DNA of 63,626 nucleotides, filler included, from Collodictyon triciliatum (lineage: Eukaryota), in NCBI GenBank assembly GCA_043381765.1. It is 8 parts of 8 records of this genome, joined end to end, with 100 filler letters (N's around TTAATTAATTAA, not from the genome) between each part and the next. Parts side by side here need not be neighbours in the genome. Positions count along the whole stretch, not along the records: positions 50,223 to 60,152 come from JBHJMP010002848.1; 7 more parts are not named here. One strand, written 5' to 3'. This document shows positions 20,003-62,449 of this stretch, piece by piece (positions within the stretch are counted from its first letter, which is position 1; each line of letters begins with the position of its first letter). Under the pieces are notes generated by a model. It was not told the DNA's origin, searched no databases, and saw only the letters and a program-made list of their open reading frames with translations. Both the position numbers and the translations under genes were made by a program.

Positions 20003-20454
20003 NNNNNNNNNNNNNNNNNNNNNNNNNNNNNNNNNNNNNNNNNNNNTTAATTAATTAANNNNNNNNNNNNNNNNNNNNNNNNNNNNNNNNNNNNNNNNNN
20101 NNACTAATTTTTTAAAAAAAAAAAATACATGAAAAAAAAAAAAAAATTTCTTTAATTAAAAAACTAAAAAAAAAAAAAAAAACATAAAAGTATACTTAAA
20201 CTTAATCAGATCCAAACCAATCCAATATGGCACACATGAACAAGCAATTAATGCCAAAAAAGAAAAGTAAGGTACCATGAAAAGAAGAGAGATAAAGAGG
20301 GAGGAGACGTTATTTATTTTGCTGTATGGCACGAATGAACCGAATTGCTGTTCAAGTGGCGGTTTTGGCCGGAACTGGTCGTCCTTCTTTTGCGGCCGGG
20401 AATACACACAACCCGAAAGAGGATACACCCGAGTGTTTTTTTTTTTTTTTCAAA

Positions 20455-24830: not shown

Positions 24831-25142
24831 ACGAGAAAAAACCAAATAAAAAAAGGTGGAAAAAAATGATCCTAAGACGGGCTTACCACCCATCCTTACC
24901 TTTCGTACCTCAAAAAAAGTAAAAGTAAAAGAAGTAACGTGAAGACAAAGAACAGTGACAAACATAATAACAAGACAAAGAACACGGCAACCTGTCCAAT
25001 ATTATCACAGGCAGCGGTATATAGCCAAGCACGATCGACAGCCACGCAAACCGTTCTGCGGAGGCGTATTTTCGTTTGGCAGGTGCCAGACTCTAACGCT
25101 GTTCCATTTATCTGTGCAGCTCCATTCAGGCGCGTCAGATCG

Positions 25143-30047: not shown

Positions 30048-30147
30048 NNNNNNNNNNNNNNNNNNNNNNNNNNNNNNNNNNNNNNNNNNNNTTAATTAAT
30101 TAANNNNNNNNNNNNNNNNNNNNNNNNNNNNNNNNNNNNNNNNNNNN

Positions 30148-40090: not shown

Positions 40091-40190
40091 NNNNNNNNNN
40101 NNNNNNNNNNNNNNNNNNNNNNNNNNNNNNNNNNTTAATTAATTAANNNNNNNNNNNNNNNNNNNNNNNNNNNNNNNNNNNNNNNNNNNN

Positions 40191-43100: not shown

Positions 43101-43770
43101 GCTGCATGATGCGCTTCCAGCTGAGCTGTAGCTTCCATTTGGACATGAAATGCATGATGATTGGTTAAATGAGCCAGTTTTGTTGTTGAATGTACCAGCT
43201 GGACATGATATGCATGATGCTTGACCATCTCTATCATTCCAAGTACCTTGTGGACATTCGATACATGATGAGTTTCCATATGAGCCGGAGTTTGAGTTGA
43301 ATGTGCCTTTTGGACAAGCATAGCATGATTGTGAGTCTTTTGTGATTCCTTCTTTTTGATAGAATCCAGGTGAGCATAAGCCGCATGATGCGCTTCTTTC
43401 TGAGCTGTAGCTTCCATTTGGACAAGAAATACATGAAGATTGGTTGAATGACCCAGTTTTATTATTATATGTACCAGCTGGACATGCTGTGCACGATGCT
43501 TGACCATCTCTATCATTCCAAGTGCCTTGCGGACATTCAATGCATGATTCGTTTCCATATGAGCCGGAGTTTGAGTTGAATGAGCCTTTTAGACAAGCAT
43601 AGCATGATTGTGAGTCTTTTGTGATTCCTTCTTTTTGATAGTACCCTGATGGGCATAAGCTGCATGATGCGCTTCTTTCTGAACTGTAGCTTCCATTTGG
43701 ACATGAAATACATAAAGATTGATTGAATGAGCCAGTTTTATCATTGAATGTACCAGCTGGACACGATATA
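40191..43770 (-). repeat. Coding 279-bp (93-aa, 10 Cys) tandem repeat, about 13 units
   Basis: Twelve GTWNDR motifs spaced 93 aa apart plus a partial first unit; the array runs off the contig end. Confidence 0.95.
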
Positions 43771-46700
43771 CATTCACTTTTATCATAATTTCCAAAAGTT
43801 CCCATTGGACATTTGATACATGATGCGTTACTTTTTTTTTCAACCCCTGGGTTATAAGTTCCTAGAGGACACTCAAGGCATGAACTTTGACTAAAATAGG
43901 GATTATACGAACCAGGTTGACAAATATGACACGTTGATTCCCCTGCATTTGATGAAAATCTTCCTTGTGGACAAGGCTGACAGCTGCTTATACTGGTTGA
44001 TGCGACATTAGGATTGAAAGTACCAGCTGGACAATTTTCACAGGTGATTGATTTCGTTTTATTCGAAAACTTTCCTGTTGAACACGGATAGCAAAACGGT
44101 TTACCTTTCTCGTCCATGTAAAACCCAGCAGGGCATTCGAAACAACTTGATTTTCCATCGACACTGTTGTACATTCCTGGTTCGCATAGCAGACAGGATG
44201 AATTCCCAGCACCTCGAATTCTCGGATTAAAGGCTCCGGCTGGACACGGAGCACATGACTTGTCTCCGGAGTTGCTGTAAAAACCAGCAGTGCAATTATT
44301 ACATGCCACTTGCCCTTTTTGATTTGTGAACGTACCAGCTTCGCATTTTTTGCAAATTGATTGACCCAGAAGGTTATTGAATGTTCCTTCCTCGCAAAAA
44401 ATACAATCTTTAATGCTTGTGGAGCCGATTGATGGATTATAAGTCCCCGTTGGACATAATATACAAAAACTGAGCTCATTTCCATTATTGTAAGAACCAG
44501 ATGGACATTTTTCACATATATTTGACTGCTGGTTGAAAAAATATCCTCCTTGGCATGGACTCCAGACTTTGATAAATATGTCAGAGCTCGCTGAAATTAT
44601 TTTTGAATCTGAAGTAACAAAGACACTATTCACTGAATTGGTGTGACTCAAAAGTGATCTAATTTCTCTTCCATCTGAGATTGACCATATTTTGACTGAT
44701 TTATCACTGCTTCCAGAATACACTTTCGTTCCGTCTGTTGATACCGAGATGCTATTTACTGAGCTTGTGTGCCCAGTGATTGTTCGAATTAAGGAACCAT
44801 CTGACATGTTCCAAATTTTGATTGTGTTATCACTGCTTCCAGAGATAATTTTTGACCCATCTGGAGAGGTAATAACACATCTGACAGCATTTCCGTGTCC
44901 AGTTATGGTTCTTATCAGTATTCCATCAGATAAATTCCAAACCATGAGGGAAAAATCAGCACTTCCCGATATAATTTTTGTACCATCAGGAGTGATAAAG
45001 ACACAATTCACTGCCTTTGTATGCCTTGACAAAGTTCGAACTAAAGTTCCATCTGAAACTTTCCAAATATTGATATTCATGTCGTCTCCTCCTGATACTA
45101 TCGTTGAACTATCTGATGATATTGCTACGCTTCTAACAGCTTCAGTATGTCCACTTAATGTTTTTAATAGTAAACCATCTGAAAAATTCCATATTTTTAC
45201 AGAATTGTCGCTGCTTCCCGACACAATTTTTGTTCCATCAGCTGACACAACCACACTATTCACAGTACTTGTATGGGCATTTATCGAAAGTGCTTGAGAA
45301 CCATCAGCATAGTTCCAGATTTTTATTGTGTTATCACTGGCTCCTGATACAATTTTAGTTTTATCTGAGCTCAAAAAAACGCTATTCACTGAACTTGTGT
45401 GGCCTGAAACAGTCAAAATCAAGCTGAAATCAGGAAAGTTCCACATTTTGATTGTTGTGTCGTCGCTTCCTGACAAAAACTTTGTACCGTCAGAGAAAAC
45501 TGATATTCCGTTTATTGTAGCTCCGTGCTCGTTCAGTATATGTGATGTCACTCCACTTGAAAAGCTCCATATTCTAACTGTGTTATCGCTGCTTCCAGAA
45601 ATAATCTTGGAGCCATCCGGAGATATTACCACTGCTTTGACAATTCCAGTATGCCCATTAAGAGTGCGAATTAAACTTCCATCTAAAATGCTGGTAATTT
45701 TGATTGTTTTATCGCTGCTCCCAGAAACAATTTTTGTTCCATCTGGCGTTATGGAAACAGAGTTTATAGAATCAGTGTGAATTTTTATATCTTGAATTAA
45801 TGAACCATCAGAAAAATTCCAAACTTTTATTGTTTTGTCAGCACTTCCTGAGATAATCTTAGAACCGCCAGGATTTAAAATCACACTTGTAACGCTGCTT
45901 GTGTGACCTGTTATAGTGCGAATCAAACCTCCTGAAATATTGGTTATTTTGATTGTTTTATCGCTACTCCCTGAGACAATATTCCTTCCATCCGCGGTCA
46001 AAGTAATGTAATTCACTGAATCTGTGTGAATTTCAAGTGATTTAATCAAAGAACCATCATTTATATTCCATATTTTGATTGCTTTATCAGTGCTTCCAGA
46101 AATTATTATGGTACTGTCAAAGCTCAAAGCTATACCATTAACAATATCTGAATGACCTGTCAGTGAGAGAAGCAATGTTCCATCTTGCGCATTCCAAACT
46201 CTCACAATATTGTCTGAATGTCCCGATACAAATAATGATTTGATATTAGATACTTGTATGTTTGTAACTCTGGAGCCTTTGGAATAAATAAGCATTCCAT
46301 CAGTGAAATTCCAAACTCGTATTGCTCTGTCCCAAGATCCCGATACAATCATTGAAATATCAGAAGTTACAGAGACACTCGATACACCTGCAAAAGGGCT
46401 CACAATAGTTCGGATCAAAACTCCGTCAGAAATCTTCCACGTTTTAATTGTTTTATCTTCACTAGCAGAAACAATCATCGAACCGTCAGAGGTAATACTT
46501 ACACAGTTAATAATATTAGCATGACCAGTGAATGTGAGAATCAAAACTCCATCAGAAAAATTCCAAACTTTGATTGTTTTATCACTACTTCCCGAAACAA
46601 TTTTCGCACAATCAGGAGTGACAGTAACACTAAGAACAGAACTTGAATGACCCGTCAGTGTGCGAATTAATGCTCCATCAGAAAGATTCCAAACCTTGAT

Positions 46701-47328
46701 TGTTTTATCACTACTTCCCGAAACAATTTTCAAGCCATCAGGTGTAACAACCACACTGTGAACCCAATTGGCATGACCTATTAATGTGTAAATCGATTTT
46801 CCATCTGAAATATTCCATATTTTTACCGTTTTATCAGCACTTCCGGACGCAATTAATGTACTATTTGGACTCGCATTGATTGAAAAAATGTCATTTGAAT
46901 GACCAGTAAGCGTTCGAATCGGTGTCCCATCTACCAAATTCCAAATTTTTATTGTTCTGTCCCATCCTCCAGAAGCAATCTTTGAGCCATCAGGAGTGAC
47001 AGCAACACTTAAAATTGCATAAGTGTGGCCTCTTAAAGTGCGAATCAAAGCTCCATCAGAAAGATTCCATATTTTGATTGTTCTGTCATCACCCCCAGAA
47101 ACGATTTTTGAGCCTTCAGGAGTAACAGCAACACAACGGACGAAATTTAAATGACCAGTTCCAGTTGTGTAAATTGATGAAACTTGACACATGCAGGAAA
47201 CAAAAATGCACATGAGAATCAGCCCTAATATAAATTATAATTTAGACCATTATCTAAAGTATCGATATTGCAGACTTACCTTGAGTCCATATTGCACGAA
47301 ATCGTGAAACTGGATTTTTTTCTCTCAT
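40191..47328 (-). CDS. Giant putative cell-surface protein: signal peptide + 21 WD40 repeats + Cys-rich (GCC2/GCC3, ephrin-receptor-like) repeats; 3'-truncated
   Basis: Exon 1 (ATG 47328) plus a 55-nt GT-AG intron (47225-47279) gives MREKNPVSRFRAIWTQGLILMCIFVSCMC. A ~7-kb exon follows with GH..V.SV..TPDGSKIVSGSSDKTIKIW repeats and then CPxGxY/F...CxxC repeats. Confidence 0.88.
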
Positions 47329-47494: not shown

Positions 47495-50409
47495 TTAGTC
47501 AAACTTTCTCTTCATAGATATAATCAGTATCAAGATACGACTCAGCACTTAGAGTTCAAATATTAAATAATTTATTTATCCAACAAGTTAAGCATTAATT
47601 TATCATAATTTTGATAACACTAACTATATTCACATTAAGGCTCTGATATTTTAACTATAATTATCAGTTTGAAAAGAGTGCATAAGTAAACATTATCTCA
47701 AAATTGCTATCATTTATCGATGTAATTATTATAGTAAGTTGACAATATTCTCAACTAAGCGAATGGATAACATGAAATGATATTAAAAATGCTATTTATG
47801 GTATAAATAGATAATATTCTGAAATTATATAAGTGAAAAAGTGAAATTCAAATATTATCATTCAATCTGAAGTATTGACTGAGACTAATTTTGTAGTGGG
47901 CATGCTCTATGATTGTTAAAAATTTATATTTGCGTATAAATCAATATTATGAATTATTGTTTGGGACTAAAAAATCTTTATGTTATATAATTGATTTTTA
48001 CACGGATGTCTGAATAGAAATTGGAAATACATATGTATACCCAATTTCATGACAAGAATAAACTACAATTCGTAAAATATATATATAATGTTTCAAAATC
48101 AGTGGAATGATTACGTGCAACAATTGTGGCCAACCACAAGATGTAAAAGATAAAGTAAAAATCTTTTTGGGAATAACCTTTGTACTCATCAATCAGATTT
48201 CCCAAAAAAAAATTACATGAATGAAATATGTATTTTGTTCATGTTGACTAAAAGAACGGTGATGGAAGTAACTTACCTTTCCTATAAACCAGCATCTAGT
48301 CCTGCAAACGTGAACACACCAAAACATTTTTTTATTCATACTTAAATCTCATTTGGTGTATCATGTGGTGAGTATAAGTAATAATTATCTTCAAAATCGA
48401 ATCAAAAATCTCATTTTACACTATTTAAATATCATATGTGATTTTCGAATTTTAAAGCCAGATCTTTATGTTTCCAATATAAGGTTTGATTGAAATTTTT
48501 GCATTTATGACAATTATATTCGATTGTAAATATGAATAACGATCATGTATATCAATAGAAGATTTTGATGACCAAGACTAGATTCAGTACAGTTTTTTCT
48601 TTTTCTCTGATATTGATCATGAAGCGGCATTAGCTTGCATTAAAAAAATCACCATATTATCAATTATTCATACGTGTCATGAAATCAAAATGAAATTGAA
48701 AATTTTGTATTGTATACTGAAATTTTTCGTCTTTATTATGGACTGGCAATCAAAAGATATTTCATGAGCTTTTTCTTCCTTCGAAGAAATTAACTCTGCC
48801 ACTTGAGTAATGGTGGGATATTTTTTGATGCTAGGCTAGTAAATTTATGATGTTGACACTTTGAAAAGATATAGGACCCGCAATATTGTGTATTGCAATT
48901 ATGATAATTAAGATAAAATTTCTATCATTCAACGTCTCATAGTTCTGAGAAACGTAACAATGATTTTGATATGCACCTTAGGAAGACTTTCATGACTACA
49001 GATAATTGATATAACAGGAAATGAGTGTATTCAGATACAACTGACTGATATCGAGAAATCATAAAGTTTTGGCTCGTCAGCAGTTCAATTATATTTTATA
49101 TAATTATATATCGATATAATCACAAAAAAAATCAAATATGCTGGTGATAACTATATTGGCGATGCTTTTCTTTTTCCTTCACTGCCTGCAACACTCGAAC
49201 TTGACTAGAAGAGGGGCTGATCTACCAGAAACAATTTTAGAAGGTAAAATATAAGTGATTATAGATTGAAGCAAACTTCTTTTCTATTATTTGGCGATTT
49301 TTTTTCTCATTCTCTCGTGCTTCTTTTGGCTCGTCGGAAAATATCCTCGATGATAGAGCAAAGAGATGATCGTAACATTCGTGCACTGTATTTTTAGAGG
49401 TATTCGCGAGGAGTATGGGTAGAAAACCACAAGGATGGTAAATAAATCGTTCATGCGATGATCAGAGGCTTGAAGCAAGGAGGAAAAAATGATCGCAAAG
49501 AGCAGTTTCATAAGCCTGCTGCCTTTTAAAAAGCAGGCACCTGACGACATAGCTCGTGAGCAAGCGACATTTACACCTCCAATATGGCGCTCAATAAAAC
49601 AAGGAAGCTGAATCAGTCTGAGAAAGCCGTGCTGTGCAGTCACAGGGATCTGGTGTCAGTGCTGTGTTTCCACACAACTTACTTTCAGGCGACCACGAAT
49701 TATTTCCAACCCCGGAGTGGCGTGATTCTTGTGTCTTGATTCATCTCCGGGGCACAACACGTTTACCAACTCAATTACAAAGTTAATTTATTGTGGAATT
49801 TATATTAAACTAGCATTCTGTGACTTCGTTTATCGATAATTAATTCATGGGAATCTAGTTTTTTCTTTATTCTATTCAAAGTGTAGCGAGGTTATACCAT
49901 ACAAAGGGGCGAGATGGGTGTGCGTGGCAGTGAGCAAAAGCAAGTTGAAGACGCTACCGTGGAGAGGGTAGCACTGGAAAGAAATCAGCGATAGCGAGTT
50001 GGTCAGGTGGGCGTCCCAAACTAGTTGATTGGTTGCGTGGGTAGCAGGGGTTGGATATGCTGTGGGAGATATCGCACGACACATTCCCACATCTCTCTTC
50101 GCTTGCGGTCAGAGTAGCGAAGNNNNNNNNNNNNNNNNNNNNNNNNNNNNNNNNNNNNNNNNNNNNTTAATTAATTAANNNNNNNNNNNNNNNNNNNNNN
50201 NNNNNNNNNNNNNNNNNNNNNNAAAAAAAGAGAGAAAAAAAAAGAGAGAAAAAAAAAGAGAGAAAAAAAAAGAGAGAAAAAAAAAGAGAGAAAAAAAGAG
50301 AAAAAAAGAGAAAAAAAGAGAGAAAAGAAACTAGCCCCCCTCTCCTGCGAAAGAGAGAGACAATTAAAGACTGACTCCTCACTGGACACAGCTACGCAAC
50401 AGCAGCTTC

Positions 50410-53400
50410 ATGAGCCGAGCCAAAGCAGCTTTACGCCGGCCTCTGCAGACACTGCCAACCATCCGGGAGACAACCGGACTCACACATCCAGACGGAGCCA
50501 ATCACGAAGCATCAGCCGCACACCTCCCACCGCTGCCCACATGTGCCTTACCGGAGTCCTTTATGCGTCTGTGGACAGCAGAAGCCTTCCCATTCCTGCA
50601 AGTGACCAACCCTGTGGCCCCGTTCTTACCACAGCCACAACCACAGCCACAACCACAGCCCCATTCGCTTAGCCTCCACATATCCGGCCCATTGCAGACT
50701 AGTGCAGCAACCACATTCCAAGCACTGAGTCCTGTAGAAGCCGATGCAGCTGCCAAGAGCCAGACCCAGAGCCAGACACAGGCGCAGCCAGGCAATGGTC
50801 CACGCGCTCCGCGGCCGCTCTACAGCACGAGCGACTGCTTCTCACGAGCCACGGCCCATCTCCACATTGCCCCTTTGCAGACAGGCTCTGGCCAGCCGTC
50901 CCACGTCTGCATCAAGGATGAAAGCGCCGACAACTGTGATGATTTACACGCCGACAGCGACGGGGCTGAAGCGTGCAACAACCGTGGCAAGTGTGATGAT
51001 GATGATGATGATGATGATGATGACGGTGATTGTGATGGCGACGGTGGTGAGGACGAAGACAATAAATACAGTGGCCGTAGTAATGTACAAGACAGGCGAA
51101 AGCGTGCTCGTTCAAGAGGCCGAGTCAGTGCAAGTCAACGTCGCACCGGGGTTGCTTTACTGCGAGTCTCCATTGTCCTCCGCACGGCATTGTATACATT
51201 CCCATTTGTGTGCTGCTTTCTTATGTCTTTTGCGCCAGTCCATCCATTTCATGAGTTGAAGTCTCCACAGCAGGCACCGTTTTCCTTTCCGTCTCTATTC
51301 ATTAGTGGCGCATTCTTTCCAGTTTTGATGGTGACATCTGTGCTACAGACGTTAATTGCTCTTGGCATTTGGCGAATTGGATTTCTACCACGGTGGAGAA
51401 GGAGGGATGTGAAGTGGAATCGGCCCGTTTCTCGCCTGATGGACCTAGCTATTGGTTGTGGAGAATGCTTCAACACTCTCCTTTTGGCTGTGTCTGTGCC
51501 CATATTCACCATTCAGTTTTCAACACTCTCATGCTTTGATTCTGGTCGAAATGGGATTCCACACAACCACCCTATATATCCTTCCATAGAATGTTGGTCG
51601 CATCGCCACATTGCTGCACTGGTGGTTGCAATGTCTTGCACACTCTTCTACTGCATCATCATTCTCTGGTTTCGCATCCGAATATACTCTGCTCTCGAGC
51701 GTTCAAAGCATCGCCATGCTGGGCACATGCAACAATCTCAAGCAGAAGCGAGTCAGCCAAAGAATTCAAACCGAATTCCTTTTCTATCTTCGCAAGGCCG
51801 CGCCCAAAGACCTACGAAGGGCAATCAAATCACCACAGCGTTTGCCCCTCATTGTCATCCACACGGCACCATGGACTTTTTCTACGAATCAAACTGTTAC
51901 TCTTTTGTGACCAGATTTTTGCTTGTCTTAACCTTTTCAATTTCATCGATTGTCCTTCACCCATTTGCAAAGATTCCAGCACAAGGACTGTTACTGGGGC
52001 TTTGCTTTGCTTATGTATTACTGCTAGTTGTGCACCCGTCAGCCGTGAACCCAAGATTTCATGGATTTCAGTTTGGCGTGGCATGGGCGCTTTTCGTTGC
52101 CCAGATCGGAATGTGGATACAAGAGTCTTGGGCGACAAATCAAATAATCGGTTCATTTACTACACTTTTATCACTGTCATGGTTCCTGGGGTATTTTTTC
52201 GGTGTTGCTAGGAGTGTTTATCCAAGATACTCTACCCTCCATCGGCTTTTAGACGAGAACCCAACTATTGGACATTCAAAGTTAGAGGAAAAAGCTGCAC
52301 ATAGACTTTTATCATCATTTCCTGATGGCCAGTACTCGATCAACAATCATGTGTTGGTGTTGTGTGGGAAAGTAGCAGACTGTCATGCTATATTTCGGTA
52401 TATGTGGTGTCCTGTTCTGGCAAACCCCACATCGATTTTTTACACAACCTGGATTGAACAAGTGATTGCAATTGATTTGTCTGACAATTTCCTGTCTTCT
52501 GAAGACGTCGTTGTCCTCGCTAGTGCTTTAGTTTCAAGGTCGTCGGTTGTCCAAAAGCTTGATTTATCTCGGAATTCCCTCACATGGGAGGCAAGTTTTC
52601 CACTGTCTGCCTTGATTAGAGGACAGCCACATCTCAGAGAACTCATCCTGGACTCGAATCTCGGGTTTTGCGTGAAAGGGCTGAATGTTTTGGTGACCGA
52701 GATTAGTTCTGGGTCTAACAAACACTTGAAGCATATTAGTTTTAATTTTTGTAACTTTGGACCGCAATCAGCTACTATTATTTCAAGACTCTTGTGCTCT
52801 CAAAGCCATCGACTTACTCTGATCAGTCTGAAAGGCAATAATTTGGGGATGAAAGGTGCTGAAATTATATCTGAAGCAATCATACTCAATGGCCATCGTG
52901 ACATTCACCTCCAATTGAGCTGGAATAACCTCAAAAAGCAAGGGGTAGAGATGTTGTTGAATAGTATCCAGCTGGCTCCCTCGCAAAGTGCAGATTCTGC
53001 GGAAGGGAATTCATCCACAACGGTATCGAGTCGCGGTGGTATCCCTATCTCGTCACGGTCTATTTCGTCGCTATGTTCCGCACCTTTTTCTCATCCAATT
53101 GATATATCCAGCAACGGGTTATCTCATGAAGAAGCCGCAGAGCTATCATGCTCATACATGGTACCCCCACCATTCCTAGCTCCGTGCTCAATCTATGGAG
53201 AGAAAGTGAAAGAAGACAATCATATACTTTTTCAGAGTCACTCACGAAACGATCGGGGCATGCATGAATTAGGAGCCAACGAAAACATTTGTTTGAATGA
53301 CAGTAATGAGCAAGTGAATATACATAAGGGACTCTTTTCACCTACAACATCAACCAAAACACCGGCTCAACCCCTTTCTTTGACAAATTCACCTTCATCT

Positions 53401-53961
53401 TCAGTTCTCGTCACAAACTCGACAATCAAGTCATCAGAGGATGGAATTTCATCCGCCGCTTCAAAATTACCTGCCCAGGACCACAGGGGTTCTTTACCTC
53501 TGGTTGACACGATTGGGGGTGAAGCATTGTTGAAACAGGTCATTGAGGATTTTTACATACGAATTCTTGCAGACCCTACACTTTATCCGATATTTGCCCG
53601 GTCTGATATGACCATTTTGCGTCTTCACAACCAGATATTTATCTCCTCACTCTTTGGAGAGCGTGTCCATCACCAAAACTATCCGCTACGGCAGATTCAC
53701 AAGAGTCTCATGATTACAGACGACCATTTTGATGCCTTTTTGACCCACTTCGTATCCACTTTGACAGAACATAACCAGAGGGTATCGCCAAATACATTAC
53801 AAAAAATTATCAGGAACATGGAATCTGTCCGGCCCCTCATTGTGCAAACCGATAGGGATTCTTCATTTTCCTCCCAGGAGTCGCGCAACTTCTCTGTCTT
53901 TTCATGGATAAGGCGCCTGTTTCATCGCGATTTGGTCCGCGCATATAACGAGGGTGCCTAG
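50410..53961 (+). CDS. Intronless multi-pass membrane protein with RI-type LRRs and a C-terminal group I truncated haemoglobin (2/2 globin) domain
   Basis: About 8 hydrophobic helices (51160-52215, including P.IECW..RH), LRRs (IDLSDNFL, LDLSRNSL, LILDSN, ISLKGNNLG, LQLSWNNL) and the globin LVDTIGGEALLKQVIEDFYIRILADPTLYPIF...LHNQIFI...LRQIHKSLMITDDHFDAF. Confidence 0.9.
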   Translation: MSRAKAALRRPLQTLPTIRETTGLTHPDGANHEASAAHLPPLPTCALPESFMRLWTAEAFPFLQVTNPVAPFLPQPQPQPQPQPHSLSLHISGPLQTSAATTFQALSPVEADAAAKSQTQSQTQAQPGNGPRAPRPLYSTSDCFSRATAHLHIAPLQTGSGQPSHVCIKDESADNCDDLHADSDGAEACNNRGKCDDDDDDDDDDGDCDGDGGEDEDNKYSGRSNVQDRRKRARSRGRVSASQRRTGVALLRVSIVLRTALYTFPFVCCFLMSFAPVHPFHELKSPQQAPFSFPSLFISGAFFPVLMVTSVLQTLIALGIWRIGFLPRWRRRDVKWNRPVSRLMDLAIGCGECFNTLLLAVSVPIFTIQFSTLSCFDSGRNGIPHNHPIYPSIECWSHRHIAALVVAMSCTLFYCIIILWFRIRIYSALERSKHRHAGHMQQSQAEASQPKNSNRIPFLSSQGRAQRPTKGNQITTAFAPHCHPHGTMDFFYESNCYSFVTRFLLVLTFSISSIVLHPFAKIPAQGLLLGLCFAYVLLLVVHPSAVNPRFHGFQFGVAWALFVAQIGMWIQESWATNQIIGSFTTLLSLSWFLGYFFGVARSVYPRYSTLHRLLDENPTIGHSKLEEKAAHRLLSSFPDGQYSINNHVLVLCGKVADCHAIFRYMWCPVLANPTSIFYTTWIEQVIAIDLSDNFLSSEDVVVLASALVSRSSVVQKLDLSRNSLTWEASFPLSALIRGQPHLRELILDSNLGFCVKGLNVLVTEISSGSNKHLKHISFNFCNFGPQSATIISRLLCSQSHRLTLISLKGNNLGMKGAEIISEAIILNGHRDIHLQLSWNNLKKQGVEMLLNSIQLAPSQSADSAEGNSSTTVSSRGGIPISSRSISSLCSAPFSHPIDISSNGLSHEEAAELSCSYMVPPPFLAPCSIYGEKVKEDNHILFQSHSRNDRGMHELGANENICLNDSNEQVNIHKGLFSPTTSTKTPAQPLSLTNSPSSSVLVTNSTIKSSEDGISSAASKLPAQDHRGSLPLVDTIGGEALLKQVIEDFYIRILADPTLYPIFARSDMTILRLHNQIFISSLFGERVHHQNYPLRQIHKSLMITDDHFDAFLTHFVSTLTEHNQRVSPNTLQKIIRNMESVRPLIVQTDRDSSFSSQESRNFSVFSWIRRLFHRDLVRAYNEGA

Positions 53962-53968
53962 TTGTAAA

Positions 53969-54031
53969 CCTTTCCTTTCCTTTCCTTTCCTTTCCTTTCC
54001 TTTCCTTTCCTTTCCTTTCCTTTCCTTTCCT
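53969..54031. repeat. (TTTCC)n microsatellite just 3' of the stop codon
   Basis: Directly visible. Confidence 0.95.
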
Positions 54032-55259
54032 AATGCACATGAATGCTCTTGGCTCTTGTCGATACGTTTGTGACTGCAACACACTTTGCCGGCTCAGTGG
54101 AGCCGTACGAGGTTGGAAATTCTCCGCTACACAAATAAAGAAATTTATATTTCTTGCACATCTTTATTCTTTTTATATAAGTTTTCTACCTTGCATCTTC
54201 GAGAAGTTTTGCGATAGGACTACCGATTCCAAGGGATGAAATAAACCGAAGGGCAGAAGAAAATAATGATAAAAAGAAAGTAAATACTAGACAAAAAATA
54301 TGGTATAATTTATATCGTATATCTGCATACAGGAAAGATGTAGTGCCCCCTTATTTTTCTTCCAGAGTGGGACGGGGCAAATCGAGCGGCACCACAAAGA
54401 ACCGAGACGCACCATTCCACAATAGGGATATTACTAGCACCTGCAACTACAAACACTGCTTATCGGGATTTTCTATTTGTGCATATAATGTCTATACTCC
54501 AATTTAATTTTCAATTTTTTTTAATTCTCTTCAAAGCAAAGCATGGGTCTATTTAAAGCGCAATGCAAATCCGATTTCGAGAATAGAGAATGTCGTTTTT
54601 TTTTTTTTAAATATTTAATTCCAATAATCATTTCCACCGTGTCGGGTATTTCTTGATTCAGTTTCAACTCACGCAAAAGAAAAAAGAAAATATAAAAAGA
54701 CAGACAGAGACACATACACACAAGCATATTATCCACCCAGGTGCATCTTCTCCTGGGTCTCCATTATCTTTCTGCAACTCCCCCACGTCCCTTGCCGCCT
54801 TCTCTCCGTCTCTCATCAGAGGCCACTGATTTAAAACGTAAACAAAATAAACAAATAAACAAACAAATAAATAAAAAGAAAACGAAAACAAGAACAAAAC
54901 TAAAGCACAGAACAGAACAGAACAGAACAGAACAAAGCAAGAAAGCACCAAAACAATACCATTAAGCAAATACATAAATAAATAAAAAAAAAAAAGAGAG
55001 AAAGAAGGAAAAGTAAGCAGAATGAGAATGAGACCCAAACTGCATCCACACCCACATCTCACTATACACAAAGACGCCAATTCACAGGATGATGCCCGGC
55101 TATCCTTTCCCCACTCGTCCACAAATCAACGAAACCAATAAAAAAGGAAAAGAAAAAAAGAAAAAAAGAAAAAAAGAAAAAAAAAGAAAAAAAAAGAAAA
55201 AAAAGAAAAAAAGCAAAAAGCAAAAAAGAAACACCCCGATGCCACGCAATAGGAGTCCC

Positions 55260-55541
55260 ATGCACCCAACGCCGCTGCACACGCGCGAGTGCCCGTTCTG
55301 CGGAGCCCCCCTCAGCGTGCGCGGCGCCTTCTGCCCACACTGCGGCAGCCGCCTGCCCCGCAGCGCCCCGGCCTTCGCAACGGCCTTCGCCCCGCCCCCG
55401 CCCCTCCGCCACGTCGCCTGGGACCCCCGCCTTGTCGCCACATACGCCCCATCCGCAGCCGCATCCCCAATCGCAGCCGCATCCCTGCAGCAGTCCCTGC
55501 GGCCCCTGCGAGACTCCCACCACCGCGAATCCGCCCCGTAG
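55260..55541 (+). CDS. Very GC-rich exon encoding a zinc ribbon (CPFCG-x8-FCPHCG); gene extent uncertain
   Basis: MHPTPLHTRECPFCGAPLSVRGAFCPHCGSRL. A possible GT donor lies just before the TAG. Confidence 0.5.
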   Translation: MHPTPLHTRECPFCGAPLSVRGAFCPHCGSRLPRSAPAFATAFAPPPPLRHVAWDPRLVATYAPSAAASPIAAASLQQSLRPLRDSHHRESAP

Positions 55542-55637
55542 GCATTCTCTACCACTGTCCACTCATTTCGCTTCTTTGCACGTCCATTCACTCGATTCGA
55601 CGTGTCTACATGCGGTCGCGCATTCCTTGCTCAAAAA

Positions 55638-55737
<100 letters not shown>

Positions 55738-56589
55738 TCTTCCTCTTTCGATTCATGGAATTGCATTGCATTCGCTCGATGGTGGAATCTTTGATTGATT
55801 TGCTTTGATTAGATTTGATTAGATTTACTGATCACTTTTTTCTTTTTCTTTTCTTTTCGTCTCCGTGTACGATAGAAAAAGCTGCTCAGAGGTCTCCTTT
55901 TTGGCTTTGAAAGGATTTCTCGTGATCTTTATTGCCGCGTTGACGTGTCGTCCGTGCATCGAAGGCGATTGGAATTAGTTGGATGCGTGTCATTGTTTCT
56001 CTTCATCTTGTATCCTTGTTGTGTTCCTTCTGACTTCAAATCACACATCTTTCTTGGGTGGTTGTTTTTTTTTTCTTTATGTTTTGTTTCTTCCATCTTC
56101 GCTTTGGTATTACTACTACCATTATGATGATGATTCAATTTTCAGTCAAATCTCTCTGCTCGTTTGTGTGTAAAAATTATTCAGGTGATGTTCAGTCATC
56201 CTGTACATGTTGCTCCTCACCTATCAAATGATTTCTTTACTATCTTATATCCTTTTTCTTCTCACCCTGAATTGTTTTCTTCTTTTTTTCATATTTGTAT
56301 TAAAACAAAACAGAAAATACAAAAATCAATCATTGAGTCAGAAAAAAAAAAGAGAGAGAAGAGGAGAATGAGGAACGATACATACATCTCTATTAAACAC
56401 ACCAAAGTTTTAATATACATTTGCTTGAAATAATGGTCTATATATTTTTTCCATAATATTCAATCGGTCTGTGCTATCCAAACTGCAGACCACTTCGTTT
56501 TTTCTCTCTCCAATCTGCAAAGCACATCATGAAGTATAATACCGTAGGATATCATCACAATGACAGAAAGATAAGGATGATGACCATAG

Positions 56590-56954
56590 TCAACAGTGCT
56601 CCGATAGGATTCTCCTTGGGCATTTCGGCCGTGGCATTTGATTGATCTCTTCATACGCGCAGAAATGATATCGTTGATGATGGATGGGACAGTCGATCAA
56701 GACAGCCCCGCAAACCAAACTGATTCGCAAAACCTCGCAGATCAGCCGTTGGGGCGCCTTGAAGGTATCATATGAATAGAGAAAGGTTTGTTGGAGAGGA
56801 GATAACTGCCCAAGGGATATGAGAATCTCTCGTACGCATTTGTCCTCACTACAGGAGAAAATAGACAAAGTTCTTTCTCCCTTAAGGAACAGACAAGAAA
56901 TATAGAGAAAACAAGAGAAATGAAAACATTTAATCAATCATCCTGTTGATAAGC

Positions 56955-56990
<36 letters not shown>

Positions 56991-57840
56991 AAAAAAAAAA
57001 ACCTTTTTAAAAGCAAAAAAAAAAAAAAAAAAAAAAACAACAACTGATCAGCAAAAAATGAAGTGGGATGAGATTGATGGAAACAATTTGTGACGAACAA
57101 GAGTTGAGAATCCATCCTTGCAGCTCTTTTCTTGACAGGATATTTGAAGGTTACAAAAGGTGGCGAAAGGGACATGTAGAATCTTTCTGCGATATAACGG
57201 GATGTGTACGGACCAATCTCATTCAATTAGTGTGATTGATAGAGATCAGGAATCAAAGTCAACTCGATTAAACAGGAAAATAAATAAATAAATCGTGATA
57301 AATAAATAAATAAATCGTGATAAATTTCAACAAGACAACACAAAATGAAAGAACAAGGGGAATATTGAGGAAGCAGGTGGATGGTGTGCACATAGTTTTG
57401 TCTTTGATAAAAAAAAAGTACATCCGACACGACGTGGTAACCGCGACAAAGTTCCGTTCACCTCATCACTCACATTAAATCTTTGGAAAGACAGAATAGT
57501 GTAATTATACAACCTATCCTTGCAAAATTAAAACAAAATCACATGTAAATAAATAAAAAAAAAAGAAGCTGAAATCGCACAGCATTTATTCTTTTTCTTT
57601 TTTTTTGCAAAGTGACAAGGTACATTTACTCATAGATATATTCTTCAAACTGCTCTATCTTTACACAGGGAGCACAGTTTATCCTATCAAATAACAATCT
57701 ATCACACGGACCATGACTTGAGCTTTTATCCTGTATTCTTTCAAATCATCTTTCTTTTCCACACATCCTCACCGCTGAGTCCTTATCTTGTCGGATTCTT
57801 CCTGGCGTCCAGCCTCACGGCCATGATTCCGATCGCCACT
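56590..57840 (-). CDS. Hypothetical multi-exon protein, 5' end unresolved
   Basis: Several GT-AG bounded segments (RINCAPCVKIEQFEEYIY; YIAERFYMSLSPPFVTFKYP; FEDKCVREILISLG...RILSEHC*) that mostly join in phase. No family recognised. Confidence 0.4.
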
Positions 57841-58396
57841 TCAACGCTGGTTATCGCACTGGGGTTAAATTGTCCATTTCCGATGATTCGTTTTTTTCGG
57901 TTACTTTGCTAAACATTTGTAACCGCTTTCAGTGAAAAACCTTTTCTGGAATATCAAAATCTTTTCTGGAATTTAAAAGCCTCAGGGAGTTTGCGACTAT
58001 CGGTGGGATAAGCCGTGGGTGGCATATCGCGGCTGCGAGCAAAGATGGGGGCTCTCTCAACCAGCCGAGATATCGTTGAGTGGATAAAGAGTGACAATCC
58101 TCATGCCAATGCAAGGGGATATCCATTTTTCAGTGGTGTCCTTTGAATATGGGGTGAAGAAATGGCGCATAAATACCATCCTTTTTGAAGGAGGGATATG
58201 ATGGCTTTGTGTAGCCAACCACAGGTCACATTTCTTTCATTTTTCATTATTATCCCACCTCGTTCCTATCCTTAATGTCTCTCTTTATTTTATTTCTTCC
58301 GTCATATTTAACACATTATCTCATTTCGAAAGTTCATCAAATTCTTTATATTTTCTTTTCGTCTCTTTTTTTTTTTCCCTTCATGTCGAAGCTATA

Positions 58397-59954
58397 TTAT
58401 GAAGTCTCCTTTATCCTGTGTTCAAAATATAAGGCTAAAGAGAGGGCCTTCACTCTCCTTTCCACGTATTCTTGCACTTGTTTCCATCCTATTTCTGATC
58501 TTGTTGGATTGCTCTTATGGAGATGAGTGACCTCCGCCAAGGCACCTAATGTTCAATCCATATTTTGTTTACATGTATGATATGTTCTTAAGTGGAGAGT
58601 TGGGTTCTAGTCCGTGAGAACAAAAGATGGAAACTGTCTATGACTTTATGTGCAGGGAAAAAAAAAATACGATAATTTAAAATTTTATCATCCACTTATA
58701 AATATTAAACAAACGCATTATAAAAGTGCTCTCTGAGGTTGCCAAGATGCATGCCCATCGACCATATCCATGTCTTGAAAATAATGATTATGTAAAGTAC
58801 GAGCCGTTGTTATTGTTGTATATTTTGGAAAAAAAGAGTTATGGAGGATTCTATAAAAACGATATTGTCGAAGAATAGAAAATCACGAATGTATAGAATC
58901 TGGTTAAATGGGAGAAATAGGAAAGAAATATCAGCGTATAAACAATTCATTTTCCAACATTTTAATGAAGGAAAACTGATGGTATAAACTTTTTCATACG
59001 GCAAGCGAAAAAAATAATTAAGAGAATAAAGAGAATAAAGAGAATAAAGAGAATAAAGAGAATAAAGAGAATAAAGAGAATAAAGAGAATAAATAGAATA
59101 AAGAGAATAAAGAGAATAAAGAGAATAAAGAGAATAAAGAGAATAAAGAGAATAAAGAAAATAAAGAGAATAAAGAAAATAAAGAAAAATAAAAATAAAA
59201 ATAAAATGATGGAAATAAGAAAAACATGTACGAAGGCTGGGAAGCACACATATAAATAAGATGAATGAGCTTAAAGGTGTTGAGATTACTTACAACAATA
59301 TTCCCTTAAGCATGAAGAAGTCGTATAACTTCGTCCAATGGCGCGAAAGACTCCTGTAATAATATTGGCATAAGCAGTATTATTAATGTCCTGGTCGTAG
59401 TTTCTTACAGCTGTTTAAAAGACATTAAATCTAATGAGAACATATAACCAAGGATTGAAGTCTGAATGAAAAGAAGCTAGAGAATTTATGGAGAAGTGTA
59501 TTTCGAAGAAACCAGTATTCATGTATCCCAGAAAGGTTTCGGTCAACGATGTTAAATTCAGTTTTCTTCTCGGACTAAAACGCCAAACAAATATGTTCCA
59601 ATTTTTTAATAGCACAATTTTAGGTATCTTTTCGTTATTCAAAGGATTGATTTCTTTTAAAAATCAAATAAAATTGATGGCCAAGGAAATGATGGAAATC
59701 CTGAGAACCTCTATTATCTTCTTTTGAATTAAATCCAGTAGCATCATACGAGCCAAGGTGATATCACTCTTGATGTCTTCTTTTGGTAAGCCATCTTTAT
59801 ACAAATATTTCAACATTCACTATTATTACTCAAGTAGAGGCACATCCTCCAATAATGTTTCTCGATATTATGAAAAAAAATCCACTTTTCACCTGAGTAG
59901 AACGATGTATCATTCTCTGGCTCGTTCAAATGCATCAAAAACAACACGATATAT
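58397..59954 (-). CDS. C-terminal part of a CHD3/4/5 (Mi-2/PICKLE)-type chromatin remodeller, 5'-truncated
   Basis: YIVLFLMHLNEP...DGLPKEDIKSDITLARMMLLDLIQKKI (DUF1086-like) and WTKLYDFFMLKGILLHGYGRWACI...YVERRVKALSLALYFE (CHDCT2-like), assembled across phase-compatible introns. Confidence 0.8.
59021..59190. repeat. (AGAGAATAA)n intronic nonamer repeat
   Basis: Directly visible in a CHD intron. Confidence 0.95.
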
Positions 59955-60048
59955 CTACATGTAGTTAAATTCAAAATAACATGTGAATGAAGACCTTAGC
60001 ATTTTTCCAGCAAAAGCGTATTGTGTGGTTTATAAATAACCATGGTGG

Positions 60049-60152
60049 TAAAAAAAAGACTAAAAAAGACTAAAAAAGACTAAAAAAGACTAAAAAAGAC
60101 TAAAAAAGACTAAAAAAGACTAAAAAAGACTAAAAAAGACAAAAAAAAAGAC
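60049..60152. repeat. (TAAAAAAGAC)n decamer repeat at contig end
   Basis: Directly visible. Confidence 0.95.
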
Positions 60153-60252
60153 NNNNNNNNNNNNNNNNNNNNNNNNNNNNNNNNNNNNNNNNNNNNTTAA
60201 TTAATTAANNNNNNNNNNNNNNNNNNNNNNNNNNNNNNNNNNNNNNNNNNNN

Positions 60253-62112: not shown

Positions 62113-62449
62113 TCCCGCGGTATCTCTGCAGACGTGAGCCAGTTCCGTCTATACTGAACCACAAGTGAGTTTACTGTCATTTAGGTAGAATGTAAAAAAA
62201 AAAAAAAAAAAGAAATGAACTTTGCTCTTTCCCCTCTTTCCCCCCTACGACTATCTTGATTCTTTATACTTGCGTTCTTTTNNNNNNNNNNNNNNNNNNN
62301 NNNNNNNNNNNNNNNNNNNNNNNNNTTAATTAATTAANNNNNNNNNNNNNNNNNNNNNNNNNNNNNNNNNNNNNNNNNNNNCTTGCGATATCCTCTTTCC
62401 ATATATGCCTCTTTTTTTTTTTTTTTTTAATTTTGTCCCCTTGCATCAG

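What the first reader, a model, noticed from the sequence alone, without database searches (positions are those of the whole stretch)
50410..53961. Multi-TM + LRR + truncated-haemoglobin fusion: candidate membrane O2/NO/redox sensor
Seen: one uninterrupted 1183-aa ORF with about 8 TM helices, then ribonuclease-inhibitor-type LRRs (~52460-53130), an S/T-rich linker and a 2/2 globin (~53500-53845). Known: group I truncated haemoglobins are usually small stand-alone proteins, and described globin-coupled sensors mostly link globins to kinase, cyclase or chemotaxis domains. The globin keeps the AB-hinge GG, B9-B10 Phe-Tyr, CD1 Phe and the proximal His F8 (LRQIH). Inference: a haem-based gas or redox signal is coupled to a membrane transporter/receptor module through an LRR scaffold. 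I do not know a described protein with this architecture.
Basis: partly seen in the sequence, partly recalled or inferred. Interest (0 to 1): 0.88.

Follow-up and report, generated by a model that had tools for sequence, protein, structure and literature searches.

The report
Membrane-anchored LRR–truncated haemoglobin fusion protein
One uninterrupted eukaryote-type gene encodes a membrane protein with eight predicted membrane helices, a leucine-rich-repeat domain and a small haem-binding globin, and it belongs to a little-known protist family that may link gas or redox chemistry to a membrane function.

Summary
ORF 50410-53961 (+) encodes 1183 aa. It has a low-complexity N-terminus and eight predicted TM helices, and a positive-inside count puts both termini in the cytosol. 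It has 6-7 ribonuclease-inhibitor-type LRRs, a disordered linker and a group I truncated haemoglobin (PF01152, E=3.2e-11, above cutoff). The modelled globin matches solved HbN, Paramecium and Chlamydomonas trHbs at TM 0.83-0.91. B10 Tyr, CD1 Phe and F8 His are kept; E11 is Asn instead of the usual Gln.

The architecture is not unique. Seven of the 151 relatives tested match both the LRR and globin parts. With two cluster mates they represent six distinct proteins, and one fetched locus adds a seventh. All seven carry hydrophobic N-terminal segments. A profile of six relatives' TM parts hits this protein at E=1.1e-5. One relative is an algal transcript. An LRR + T1-globin chimera was noted in Allomyces in 2012 (PMC3287990). 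My searches found no described TM + 2/2-globin protein.

The TM domain matches no Pfam or PDB family. The sensor function is inferred and untested. The window is a concatenation of contigs, so only 50223-60152 is true context.

Verdict: real gene, undescribed family, new variant of chimeric globins; interest 0.55.

The parts
50410..53961 (+). Whole ORF, 1183 codons plus the TAG stop, single exon
   Evidence: In-frame stops upstream at 50332 and 50365. Chance of staying open about 2e-25.
50410..51144 (+). N-terminal low-complexity extension, residues 1-245 (QP repeat, poly-Asp, basic cluster RRKRARSRGR just before TM1). Relatives lack it.
   Evidence: Translation. Alignment A1 shows relatives start about 50 aa or less before the first helix. 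GC is 0.59-0.60 here against 0.41-0.50 in the rest of the ORF.
51145..52224 (+). Polytopic membrane domain, residues 246-605. Eight predicted helices at about 253-273, 305-325, 346-366, 401-421, 495-515, 522-542, 550-570 and 579-599. Predicted topology is N-in, C-in. No known family.
   Evidence: Hydropathy, AF2 helices (pLDDT 51.6) and K+R of 35 inside against 4 outside. A profile of six relatives' TM parts hits residues 362-446 at single-target E=1.1e-5; the best of 200 shuffles scored 7.9 bits against 12.2. No Pfam hit and no PDB hit at E<=10.
51508..51609 (+). Predicted extracytosolic loop between TM3 and TM4, residues 367-400, with two Cys and the CWSHRH motif. With the following helix and the LE.SK motif it forms the best conserved TM-domain stretch.
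   Evidence: Alignment A3 has the second Cys invariant. HMM alignment. Loop composition.
52459..53166 (+). Ribonuclease-inhibitor-type LRR domain, residues 684-919. Six strand/helix units at 684-864 plus a separate terminal unit at about 895-919.
   Evidence: PDB phmmer. AF2 pLDDT above 90. Foldseek RI E=7.6e-7 and NLRP1 LRR TM 0.78-0.79. Invariant L735, L795, N810, W838, N839 and G845 across eight family members.
53167..53493 (+). Linker, residues 920-1028, predicted disordered, Ser-rich in its second half
   Evidence: pLDDT below 50. Composition. Relatives have much shorter linkers.
53494..53841 (+). Group I (N-type) truncated haemoglobin domain, residues 1029-1144. Tyr B10 is codon 53554-53556 and proximal His F8 is codon 53698-53700.
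   Evidence: PF01152 E=3.2e-11. HbN E=4.6e-11. AF2 pLDDT 88-96. Foldseek TM 0.83-0.91 and rmsd 1.4-1.7 A to group I trHbs. Y1049, F1062 and H1097 in 20 of 20 rows.
53842..53958 (+). C-terminal tail, residues 1145-1183, with a predicted helix (about 1163-1180: FSVFSWIRRLFHRDLVRAY)
   Evidence: Secondary structure (pLDDT about 50). Sequence.

Best explanation
What it is (confidence about 0.9). This is a real, single-exon eukaryotic gene for an integral membrane protein. After a roughly 245-aa low-complexity head come eight TM helices of an unrecognised family. Both termini face the cytosol, and a conserved Cys-containing loop faces outside. The cytosolic C-terminal half carries 6-7 ribonuclease-inhibitor-type LRRs. 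A group I truncated haemoglobin follows on a disordered tether of about 110 aa, with an intact haem pocket (Tyr B10, Phe CD1, His F8). It is a divergent member of a conserved but undescribed protist family with the same domain order.

How it most likely works (inferred, about 0.4). The globin binds haem and reports O2, NO or redox state at the cytosolic face of the membrane. The change in ligand or oxidation state alters how the globin sits on the LRR horseshoe or on an LRR-bound partner. That in turn modulates the activity of the 8-TM domain, which would be a channel, transporter or receptor. This would work like a globin-coupled sensor whose output is a membrane domain. It is comparable in layout to channels gated by a cytosolic LRR domain (LRRC8, recalled from memory).

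Shown here: the ORF, the domains, the predicted topology, the conservation of the haem residues and the recurrence of the architecture. Inferred: haem binding, any ligand response, any LRR-globin contact and any activity of the TM domain.
For: ORF and domains.

Topology: K+R is 35 against 4, which places the LRR and globin in the cytosol. Both domain types normally work there (established knowledge of RI/NLR LRRs and of globins).

Haem pocket under selection: F1048, Y1049, F1062, H1097 and L1100 are invariant in 8 of 8 family members at about 21% overall identity.

Recurrence of the three-part order: 7 of the 151 proteins tested match both LRR and globin. With two cluster mates these collapse to six distinct proteins, because P0083 is part of P0155 and P0133 is part of P0157. 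Hydropathy shows several N-terminal hydrophobic segments in all six, although P0050 is cut at its N-terminus. L001 encodes a complete 827-aa TM + LRR + globin ORF.

TM homology: E=1.1e-5, and 0 of 200 shuffles reach the score.

The conserved polytopic domain has its own conserved outside loop. That is more than a plain membrane anchor would need, which argues that the globin serves the TM domain (inference).

The label 'TM-LRR-globin' is clustered on the globin tree: 3 changes against a shuffled mean of 6.9, 0 of 500 shuffles as low.

The LRR-globin stretch is transcribed as one unit in a relative, an MMETSP Phaeomonas parva transcript (P0133/P0156) that overlaps the 895-aa P0157.
Against: There is no functional evidence of any kind.

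The TM domain has no match to any channel, transporter or receptor family (Pfam; PDB profile). Its AF2 model is unusable (pLDDT 51.6).

The LRR-globin linker is about 110 aa and predicted disordered. Described globin-coupled sensors use short helical linkers (PMC8076648, passages).

E11 is Asn where 17 of 20 aligned globins have Gln, so ligand stabilisation may differ.

On the ML tree this protein's globin lies outside the clade of the six relatives. It sits with three other globins of 131-469 aa (SH-aLRT 75/94). Its E7 and E10 residues (Leu, His) differ from the family's (Met, Leu). The fusion here may therefore be independent, or the globin may have been replaced. A single clade is nonetheless not rejected (AU p=0.233).

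No transcript evidence exists for this gene itself.
Confidence: 0.4

Rival explanations
1. Tethered enzyme rather than sensor. The globin would be a membrane-localised NO dioxygenase or nitrite reductase, held by a flexible leash at the cytosolic face. The LRR would dock its reductase or another partner. The TM domain would only place the chemistry at a particular membrane, or next to its own substrate flux.
For: The long disordered linker fits a leash. Group I trHbs of algae and mycobacteria are best known as NO dioxygenases (recalled). 2/2 Hb domains fused to nitrate reductase or kinase are on record (PMC7082302, passage). Tyr B10 is intact.
Against: A conserved 8-TM domain is far more than an anchor needs. 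Relatives have short linkers. E11 is Asn, not Gln. No reductase domain is present in the ORF.
Confidence: 0.3
2. Redox or electron-transfer module. The globin would be six-coordinate, using His at E10 as in cyanobacterial GlbN (recalled). It would pass electrons to or from the membrane domain or its partners, as proposed for the Geobacter TM-linked globin.
For: His occupies E10 (H1073), as in 13 of 20 aligned group I globins. GsGCS, a globin joined to a 4-TM domain, was proposed to act in membrane-bound e-/H+ transfer or redox sensing (PMC8076648, abstract and passages).
Against: The six relatives have Leu at E10. No metal- or cofactor-binding motif was recognised in the TM domain. The idea is an analogy only.
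Confidence: 0.12
3. The globin domain is a haem-free relic that serves only as a structural or protein-binding module.
For: E11 is atypical, and this globin sits on a long end branch (0.68 against a median of 0.43).
Against: The proximal His, Tyr B10, Phe CD1 and both hinge Gly are kept. The Pfam score is twice the cutoff. The fold is modelled with confidence and matches solved trHbs at 1.4-1.7 A.
Confidence: 0.08
4. Artefact. The ORF would be an assembly chimera, or would not be expressed as one protein.
For: The assembly is fragmented into pieces of about 10 kb. No run holds more than a tenth of the sampled words. No contig bridges the TM-LRR boundary.
Against: The same three-part order occurs in independent proteins and in locus L001. 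Independent public contigs with 0-3 differences tile 52140-52290, 52664-52942 and 53178-53962 (the last with a 41-base gap at 53329-53369). One of them runs from the linker into the globin (53370-53605). The frame stays open for 1183 codons.
Confidence: 0.04

Closest known systems
Allomyces macrogynus AMAG_16521T0, a 1129-aa chimeric protein with an RI-like region, LRRs and a group 1 T globin (Hoogewijs et al. 2012, PMC3287990; passages read)
   Same: RI-type LRR domain followed by a C-terminal group I truncated haemoglobin in a eukaryotic protein of about 1100 aa.
   Different: Its N-terminal 20-560 was reported as RI-like, and no TM domain is mentioned. The paper's supplementary tables were closed.
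Group I truncated haemoglobins: M. tuberculosis HbN (1idr), Paramecium (1dlw), Chlamydomonas (1dly, THB1 4xdi), Tetrahymena (3aq5)
   Same: Sequence E=4.6e-11 to 1e-7. Modelled fold TM 0.81-0.91, rmsd 1.4-2.0 A. GG hinge, Phe B9, Tyr B10, Phe CD1, Leu E7 and His F8.
   Different: Those are stand-alone proteins of 116-164 aa. Here the domain ends a 1183-aa membrane protein. E11 is Asn, not Gln.
Globin-coupled sensors and TM-linked globins (Geobacter GsGCS with globin + 4 TM; C. elegans GLB-33 with 7 TM + globin) (PMC8076648, PMC1457004; passages read)
   Same: A globin covalently joined to a polytopic membrane domain. GLB-33 also has the TM domain first and the globin last.
   Different: Those globins are 3/3-fold or S-family types, not 2/2. 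There is no LRR between the domains. Their TM domains are PsiE-like or GPCR-like, whereas this one matches nothing known.
Other chimeric and multi-unit T1 globins of microbial eukaryotes: tandem trHb repeats, trHb-ankyrin, and trHb in raphidophyte nitrate reductase (PMC7475203, PMC7082302; passages read)
   Same: A group I 2/2 globin used as a module in a larger eukaryotic protein. The top eight database hits (P0005-P0012) carry 3-12 tandem trHb units, and P0012 also carries ankyrin repeats.
   Different: None of those eight has TM helices plus LRRs.
LRRC8 volume-regulated anion channels (recalled from memory, not tested)
   Same: Layout: an N-terminal pore-forming TM domain with disulfide-bearing outer loops and a cytosolic C-terminal LRR horseshoe that influences gating.
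   Different: No sequence similarity was found; the profile of the TM part has no PDB hit at E<=10. LRRC8 has 4 TM helices and no globin.

Membership tests
Truncated (2/2) haemoglobin, Pfam PF01152 Bac_globin | Profile match above the curated cutoff | tested here: met
   43.9 bits against a cutoff of 21, E=3.2e-11, profile positions 3-115 of 121.
Truncated (2/2) haemoglobin, Pfam PF01152 Bac_globin | Proximal His at F8 | tested here: met
   H1097 aligns with HbN His81. It is His in 20 of 20 rows of A4 and 8 of 8 rows of A1.
Truncated (2/2) haemoglobin, Pfam PF01152 Bac_globin | 2-on-2 helical fold | tested here: met
   AF2 pLDDT 88-96 for residues 1029-1144. Foldseek TM 0.83-0.91 and rmsd 1.4-1.7 A to solved trHbs. 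This is a model, not a structure.
Truncated (2/2) haemoglobin, Pfam PF01152 Bac_globin | Binds haem b | not testable with these tools
   Needs expression and spectroscopy.
Group I (N) truncated haemoglobin | Closer to group I than to group II/III; Tyr B10 with Gln E11; G8 is not Trp (criteria recalled) | tested here: inconclusive
   Group I chains score E=4.6e-11 to 1e-7. Group II chains (1ux8, 2bkm, 2bmm) score 1.3e-4 to 0.014. B10 is Tyr and G8 is Phe, but E11 is Asn where 17 of 20 have Gln.
Ribonuclease-inhibitor-type LRR | Repeats of about 28-29 residues with alternating strand and helix; similarity to RI/NLR LRRs | tested here: met
   PDB phmmer RI 5e-7. Six strand/helix units spaced 28-32 residues apart. 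Foldseek RI and NLRP1/3 hits. Pfam LRR_6 is below its cutoff in this protein, but 8 of 8 family members match it at E<=1, best E=3.7e-12.
TM-LRR-trHb protist family (unnamed; P0088, P0155, P0157, P0134, P0051, P0100, P0050, L001) | Same domain order: polytopic TM, RI-type LRR, C-terminal group I trHb | tested here: met
TM-LRR-trHb protist family (unnamed; P0088, P0155, P0157, P0134, P0051, P0100, P0050, L001) | Homologous TM domain | tested here: met
   A profile of six relatives' TM parts scores 12.2 bits, single-target E=1.1e-5, over residues 362-446 only. The best of 200 shuffles scores 7.9 bits. The match is weak and covers about a quarter of the domain.
TM-LRR-trHb protist family (unnamed; P0088, P0155, P0157, P0134, P0051, P0100, P0050, L001) | Globin domain falls in the family's globin clade | tested here: inconclusive
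   It lies outside the 7-leaf clade on the ML tree. One clade is not rejected (AU p=0.233).
Globin-coupled sensor (S family) | N-terminal 3/3 sensor globin followed by a transmitter domain | tested here: not met
   The globin is 2/2 and C-terminal. The Pfam Globin match is below cutoff and Protoglobin gives no hit at E<=1.
Fungal/algal TRP-like channel, Pfam PF06011 | Profile match of the TM domain | tested here: not met
   It appears only as a low-ranked language-model lead (0.85 and 0.82; 25% of cluster members carry PF06011). hmmscan gives no hit at E<=1.

The most novel reading that the evidence does not exclude
These proteins could be a previously unrecognised class of haem-regulated membrane channels or transporters of protists. 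An 8-TM domain of a new fold would have its activity set by O2/NO/redox binding to a cytosolic 2/2 globin acting through an LRR horseshoe. That would be the first truncated-haemoglobin-based sensor with a membrane output, and a eukaryotic counterpart of bacterial globin-coupled sensors.
Probability: 0.2. Interest if true: 0.8.

Novelty: new variant of a known kind. Interest (0 to 1): 0.55.

Why it matters
Truncated haemoglobins are studied almost entirely as small soluble proteins, and their physiological roles in eukaryotes are mostly unsettled. A conserved family places a group I trHb on the cytosolic side of a polytopic membrane protein, behind a protein-docking LRR domain. That gives a concrete, testable setting for what the haem chemistry is for: gating, local NO removal or electron transfer. 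It also flags an 8-TM domain with no known relatives, and it extends the short list of globins covalently joined to membrane domains from 3/3 globins to 2/2 globins. Several members are complete ORFs without introns, so the globin domain and the full-length protein can be expressed directly.

Tried and rejected
**Source genome and earlier findings**
- Whole-genome look-up: no genome is held for this window.
- Earlier findings by place, sequence and words returned nothing.

**Homologue searches**
- Word-index searches were of little use. The full-length query gave only a coral NOD2-like LRR protein. Profile A1 gave only an EF-hand/LRR protein. TM profile A3 with longer lengths gave only P0051. 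The protein itself is not in that collection.
- The top hits of the exhaustive search looked like orthologues by score. The eight I scanned (P0005-P0012) are tandem multi-globin proteins.
- The search for related loci with A1 found no conserved stretch to search with. With P0001 alone, none of 584 pattern matches encoded a relative.

**TM domain**
- The AF2 model has pLDDT 51.6 and pTM 0.42, too poor for a fold search, so none was run.
- The profile against PDB gave 0 hits at E<=10.
- The protein atlas gave only unnamed clusters at 0.87-0.90 and a TRP (PF06011) cluster at 0.82-0.85. These are leads only.

**LRR-globin contact**
- Complex prediction of LRR (655-905) + globin (1022-1160) + haem scored 0.00, verdict 'no answer'. 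This is neither support nor evidence against.

**Sequencing runs**
- No RNA holder is listed and no run holds more than 0.10 of the words.
- Laid contigs include many hits to the QP-repeat at 50628-50660 from unrelated sequence, plus a few true near-identical pieces.
- X1 is only guessed to be RNA, so it is not used as evidence of expression. Parts without cover say nothing.

**Other**
- Rfam and tRNA scans of the window found nothing.
- I could not name the source organism.

**Literature**
- Hade et al. 2017 (IUBMB Life) is not held. Vinogradov et al. 2013 (Microbial eukaryote globins) was seen only as a citation in a reference list, and I did not request it. Either may list this architecture.
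- Paper supplements were closed. Tables S1 and S6 of PMC3287990 were not seen.


Full report
**1. Context of the window**

The window is not one stretch of genome. Pairs of 44 N flank the all-frame stop spacer TTAATTAATTAA at 9955, 20003, 30048, 40091, 50123, 60153 and 62282. They cut the window into pieces of 9954, 9948, 9945, 9943, 9932, 9930 and 2029 bases, plus a last piece that ends with the window. These look like separate contigs joined end to end.

The ORF's true context is therefore only 50223-60152. That is 187 bases of AG-rich microsatellite upstream and about 6.2 kb downstream. The downstream stretch is AT-rich and full of microsatellites, and it holds only one small zinc-ribbon ORF.

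No whole genome is held, and no tRNA or Rfam family lies in the window. The composition is eukaryote-like: GC-richer ORFs sit in 33-35% GC spacers. I could not name the organism.

**2.

ORF 50410-53961 (+) is open for 1183 codons from an ATG. In-frame stops lie at 50332 and 50365, and the only in-frame ATGs before the membrane region are codons 1 and 52. With its own base composition, the chance of such an open frame is about 2e-25.

*Globin.* Pfam gives PF01152 (Bac_globin) at 43.9 bits against a cutoff of 21, E=3.2e-11, residues 1032-1137. phmmer against PDB sequences puts group I truncated haemoglobins first:
- M. tuberculosis HbN, 4.6e-11
- Chlamydomonas eugametos (1dly), 5.4e-10
- THB1, 9.8e-10
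- Tetrahymena and cyanobacterial GlbN, about 1e-7

Group II proteins trail at 1.3e-4 to 0.014.

*LRR.* Residues about 673-863 match ribonuclease inhibitors and NLRP LRRs at 5e-7 and weaker.

*Model of the C-terminal half.* An AF2 model of residues 640-1183 (20-row alignment A4) has pLDDT above 90 for the LRR part. That part has six strand/helix units at residues 684-864 and one more at about 895-919. The globin (1029-1144) has pLDDT 88-96, and the segments between domains are below 50.

Foldseek against PDB finds two groups of matches:
- RI (E=7.6e-7) and the NLRP1 LRR (TM 0.78-0.79) for the LRR part
- HbN (TM 0.83-0.86, rmsd 1.6 A), Paramecium (0.91), Chlamydomonas (0.88) and Tetrahymena (0.89-0.90) trHbs for the globin

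*Haem-pocket residues.* The alignment to HbN is ungapped up to the F helix, so query residue = HbN residue + 1016. With my recalled HbN numbering this gives:

| Position | Residue in this protein |
|---|---|
| GG hinge | 1036-1037 |
| B9 | Phe 1048 |
| B10 | Tyr 1049 |
| CD1 | Phe 1062 |
| E7 | Leu 1070 |
| E10 | His 1073 |
| E11 | Asn 1074 |
| F8 | His 1097 |
| G8 | Phe 1110 |

In the 20-row alignment, Tyr B10, Phe CD1 and His F8 are present in 20 of 20 rows. E11 is Gln in 17 rows, Met in 2, and Asn only in this protein.

**3. Membrane region and topology**

Hydropathy shows peaks between residues 253 and 600. A low-confidence AF2 model (pLDDT 51.6) shows eight long helices. I took the most hydrophobic 21-mer in each. 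The loops on one side then hold 11, 7, 10, 1 and 6 Lys+Arg (35 in all), and those on the other side hold 1, 2, 1 and 0 (4 in all).

By the positive-inside rule, the N-terminal extension, the long TM4-TM5 loop and the whole LRR-globin half are cytosolic. The TM3-TM4 loop, with its two Cys, faces outside. A cytosolic location is what RI-type LRRs and a haem globin would need.

**4. It is one of a family**

The exhaustive profile-free search found 1232 proteins at E<=1e-3, of which 150 were listed. The eight highest scorers that I scanned are tandem arrays of 3-12 trHb units, not the same architecture.

I re-scored the 151 proteins then held locally:
- 104 match only the globin
- 40 match only the LRRs
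- 7 match both: P0050, P0051, P0083, P0088, P0100, P0133 and P0134

With the cluster mates P0155 and P0157 these represent six distinct proteins. P0083 is a part of P0155, and P0133 is a part of P0157. Hydropathy shows several N-terminal hydrophobic segments in all six. P0050 is cut at its N-terminus and keeps only the last few. Their sources are JGI/IMG, ENA and Logan assemblies. P0133/P0156 is an MMETSP transcript that UniRef assigns to the alga Phaeomonas parva.

A scan of metagenome contigs with the closest three relatives returned 13 loci. L001 carries a complete 827-aa ORF with hydrophobic N-terminal segments, LRR_6 and Bac_globin, both above cutoff. L002 holds a partial one. The other 11 loci match only the LRR part.

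All eight aligned members hit Bac_globin and LRR_6. They share 14 invariant positions, and five of these lie in the haem pocket region.

*TM-domain homology.* I built an HMM from the N-terminal parts of six relatives and scored this protein. It gave 12.2 bits, single-target E=1.1e-5, over residues 362-446 (end of TM3, Cys loop, TM4 and the LE.SK motif). The best of 200 composition-matched shuffles scored 7.9 bits. The match is weak and partial but specific.

*Globin tree.* The tree has 111 rows and few columns. The six relatives plus one 164-aa fragment form a clade. This protein's globin sits elsewhere, with P0081, P0052 and P0151. The label is clustered (3 changes against 6.9 expected, 0 of 500 shuffles), and forcing one clade is not rejected (AU p=0.233).

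This protein also differs from the six at E7 (Leu against Met) and E10 (His against Leu). It carries a 245-aa N-terminal extension and a much longer LRR-globin linker.

I read it as a divergent member. An independent fusion or a globin replacement is not excluded.

**5. Independent traces of this exact sequence**

No public run holds more than a tenth of the sampled words. When four runs were laid, most hits were to the QP-repeat. A few contigs match with 0-3 differences:
- X2: 52140-52290
- X3: 52664-52814, 53178-53328 and 53581-53840
- X5: 52680-52942
- X1: 53370-53605 and 53669-53962

X2 and X3 are labelled freshwater metagenomes. This hints that the organism, or a near-identical one, lives in fresh water. 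The X1 piece at 53370-53605 runs from the linker into the globin. X1's RNA status is only a guess, so this is not evidence of expression.

**6. What the TM domain is**

Unknown. There is no Pfam hit at E<=1 in any of the eight members apart from single chance-level rows. There is no PDB sequence hit at E<=10. The language-model atlas returns only unnamed eukaryotic clusters. The same Oomycota-labelled cluster comes up for this protein (0.90) and for P0088 (0.89). A TRP (PF06011) cluster comes up at 0.85 and 0.82, which is a lead and not a finding.

**7. Mechanism**

Shown: the domains, their order, the predicted topology, the conservation of haem-contact residues and the recurrence of the architecture. 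Everything else is inference.

I favour (about 0.4) a haem-based O2/NO/redox sensor whose output is the membrane domain, with the LRR as the surface on which the globin or a partner docks. A conserved polytopic domain is more than an anchor. The three parts also stay together across proteins that are only about 21% identical.

The main rival (about 0.3) is a leashed NO-dioxygenase-type enzyme. The 109-residue disordered linker in this protein fits that reading well.

A redox or electron-transfer role (about 0.12) is suggested by His at E10 and by what was proposed for Geobacter GsGCS (PMC8076648, passages). A haem-free relic (about 0.08) and an artefact (about 0.04) are unlikely, for the reasons given under the rival explanations.

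**8. Comparison with what is known**

Papers were read as passages only.

- Hoogewijs et al. 2012 (PMC3287990) reported a 1129-aa Allomyces macrogynus protein. It has an RI-like N-terminal region, LRRs at 578-800 and a group 1 T globin at 826-944. The LRR + T1-globin pairing is therefore already in print, without a TM domain.
- Keppner et al. 2020 (PMC7475203) state that chimeric and multi-unit T1 globins occur in eukaryotes.
- Huwald et al. 2020 (PMC7082302) mention 2/2 Hb fusions to kinase and nitrate reductase.
- Hammerschmid et al. [quoted passage not shown] Both are 3/3-type globins.

My full-text searches found no description of a TM-linked truncated haemoglobin or of this three-part architecture:
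- combined 'truncated hemoglobin' with 'leucine-rich', 'transmembrane', 'transmembrane helices', 'chimeric' and 'multidomain'
- combined 'globin', 'chimeric', 'LRR' and 'stramenopiles'
- searched 'multidomain truncated hemoglobins' and 'domain fusion'

Two likely sources were not read. Hade et al. 2017 is not held. Vinogradov et al. 2013 appeared only in a reference list, and I did not request it. All supplements were closed.

**9. Verdict**

It belongs to an unnamed family that joins an 8-TM domain of unknown kind, an RI-type LRR and a group I truncated haemoglobin. It is a new variant within the known kind 'chimeric globins', not a categorically new system. Its function is open and directly testable.

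Noticed in passing
window 9955-10054, 20003-20102, 30048-30147, 40091-40190, 50123-50222, 60153-60252, 62282-62381: Each site is N44 + TTAATTAATTAA + N44, an all-frame stop spacer. The window is a chain of separate contigs of decreasing length (9954 down to 9930, then 2029), so genes in different pieces are not neighbours.
   Followed up: partly
window 40191-47213 (-): A 2356-aa intron-free ORF that runs into the spacer. By eye it holds many WD40-like repeats followed by dozens of Cys-rich CxxCPxGT repeats (not scanned against Pfam). Its GC3 of 0.29 differs from the globin ORF's 0.36-0.62, so the pieces may not all come from one genome.
   Followed up: partly
window 55089-55541 (+): A 150-aa ORF with a zinc-ribbon match (PF13248, 28.4 bits against a cutoff of 27) in a GC-rich island 1.1 kb downstream of the globin gene. 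It is the only other candidate gene on this contig. The relative L001 begins with a CxxC...CxxC motif of its own.
   Followed up: partly
window 50223-50330 and 53969-54022: The ORF is flanked by microsatellites, (A)n(GA)n units upstream and (CCTTT)n directly after the stop codon. More repeats, (GA)n and others, lie at 55700-55800 and 58990-59250.
   Followed up: no
window 24939-27521 (+): An 860-aa ORF rich in Ser, Pro and Gln, with nine copies of a QQQQQI repeat. It was not scanned against Pfam.
   Followed up: no
P0088, P0050, P0155, L001 and L002 (C-terminal tails): The closest-knit relatives share a conserved tail after the globin (KA.P[FY]F.G..W.TG..K.R ... HP.[LI]... CCP). The paired Cys could be a lipidation site.
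   Followed up: no
P0155 residues about 249-296: A 48-residue Pro/Arg-rich insertion absent from all relatives interrupts the TM domain. It is possibly an unspliced intron in that gene model.
   Followed up: no
P0005-P0011 (database proteins): Seven proteins carry 3-12 tandem group I truncated haemoglobin units, up to 1882 aa. P0012 joins three such units to ankyrin repeats.
   Followed up: partly
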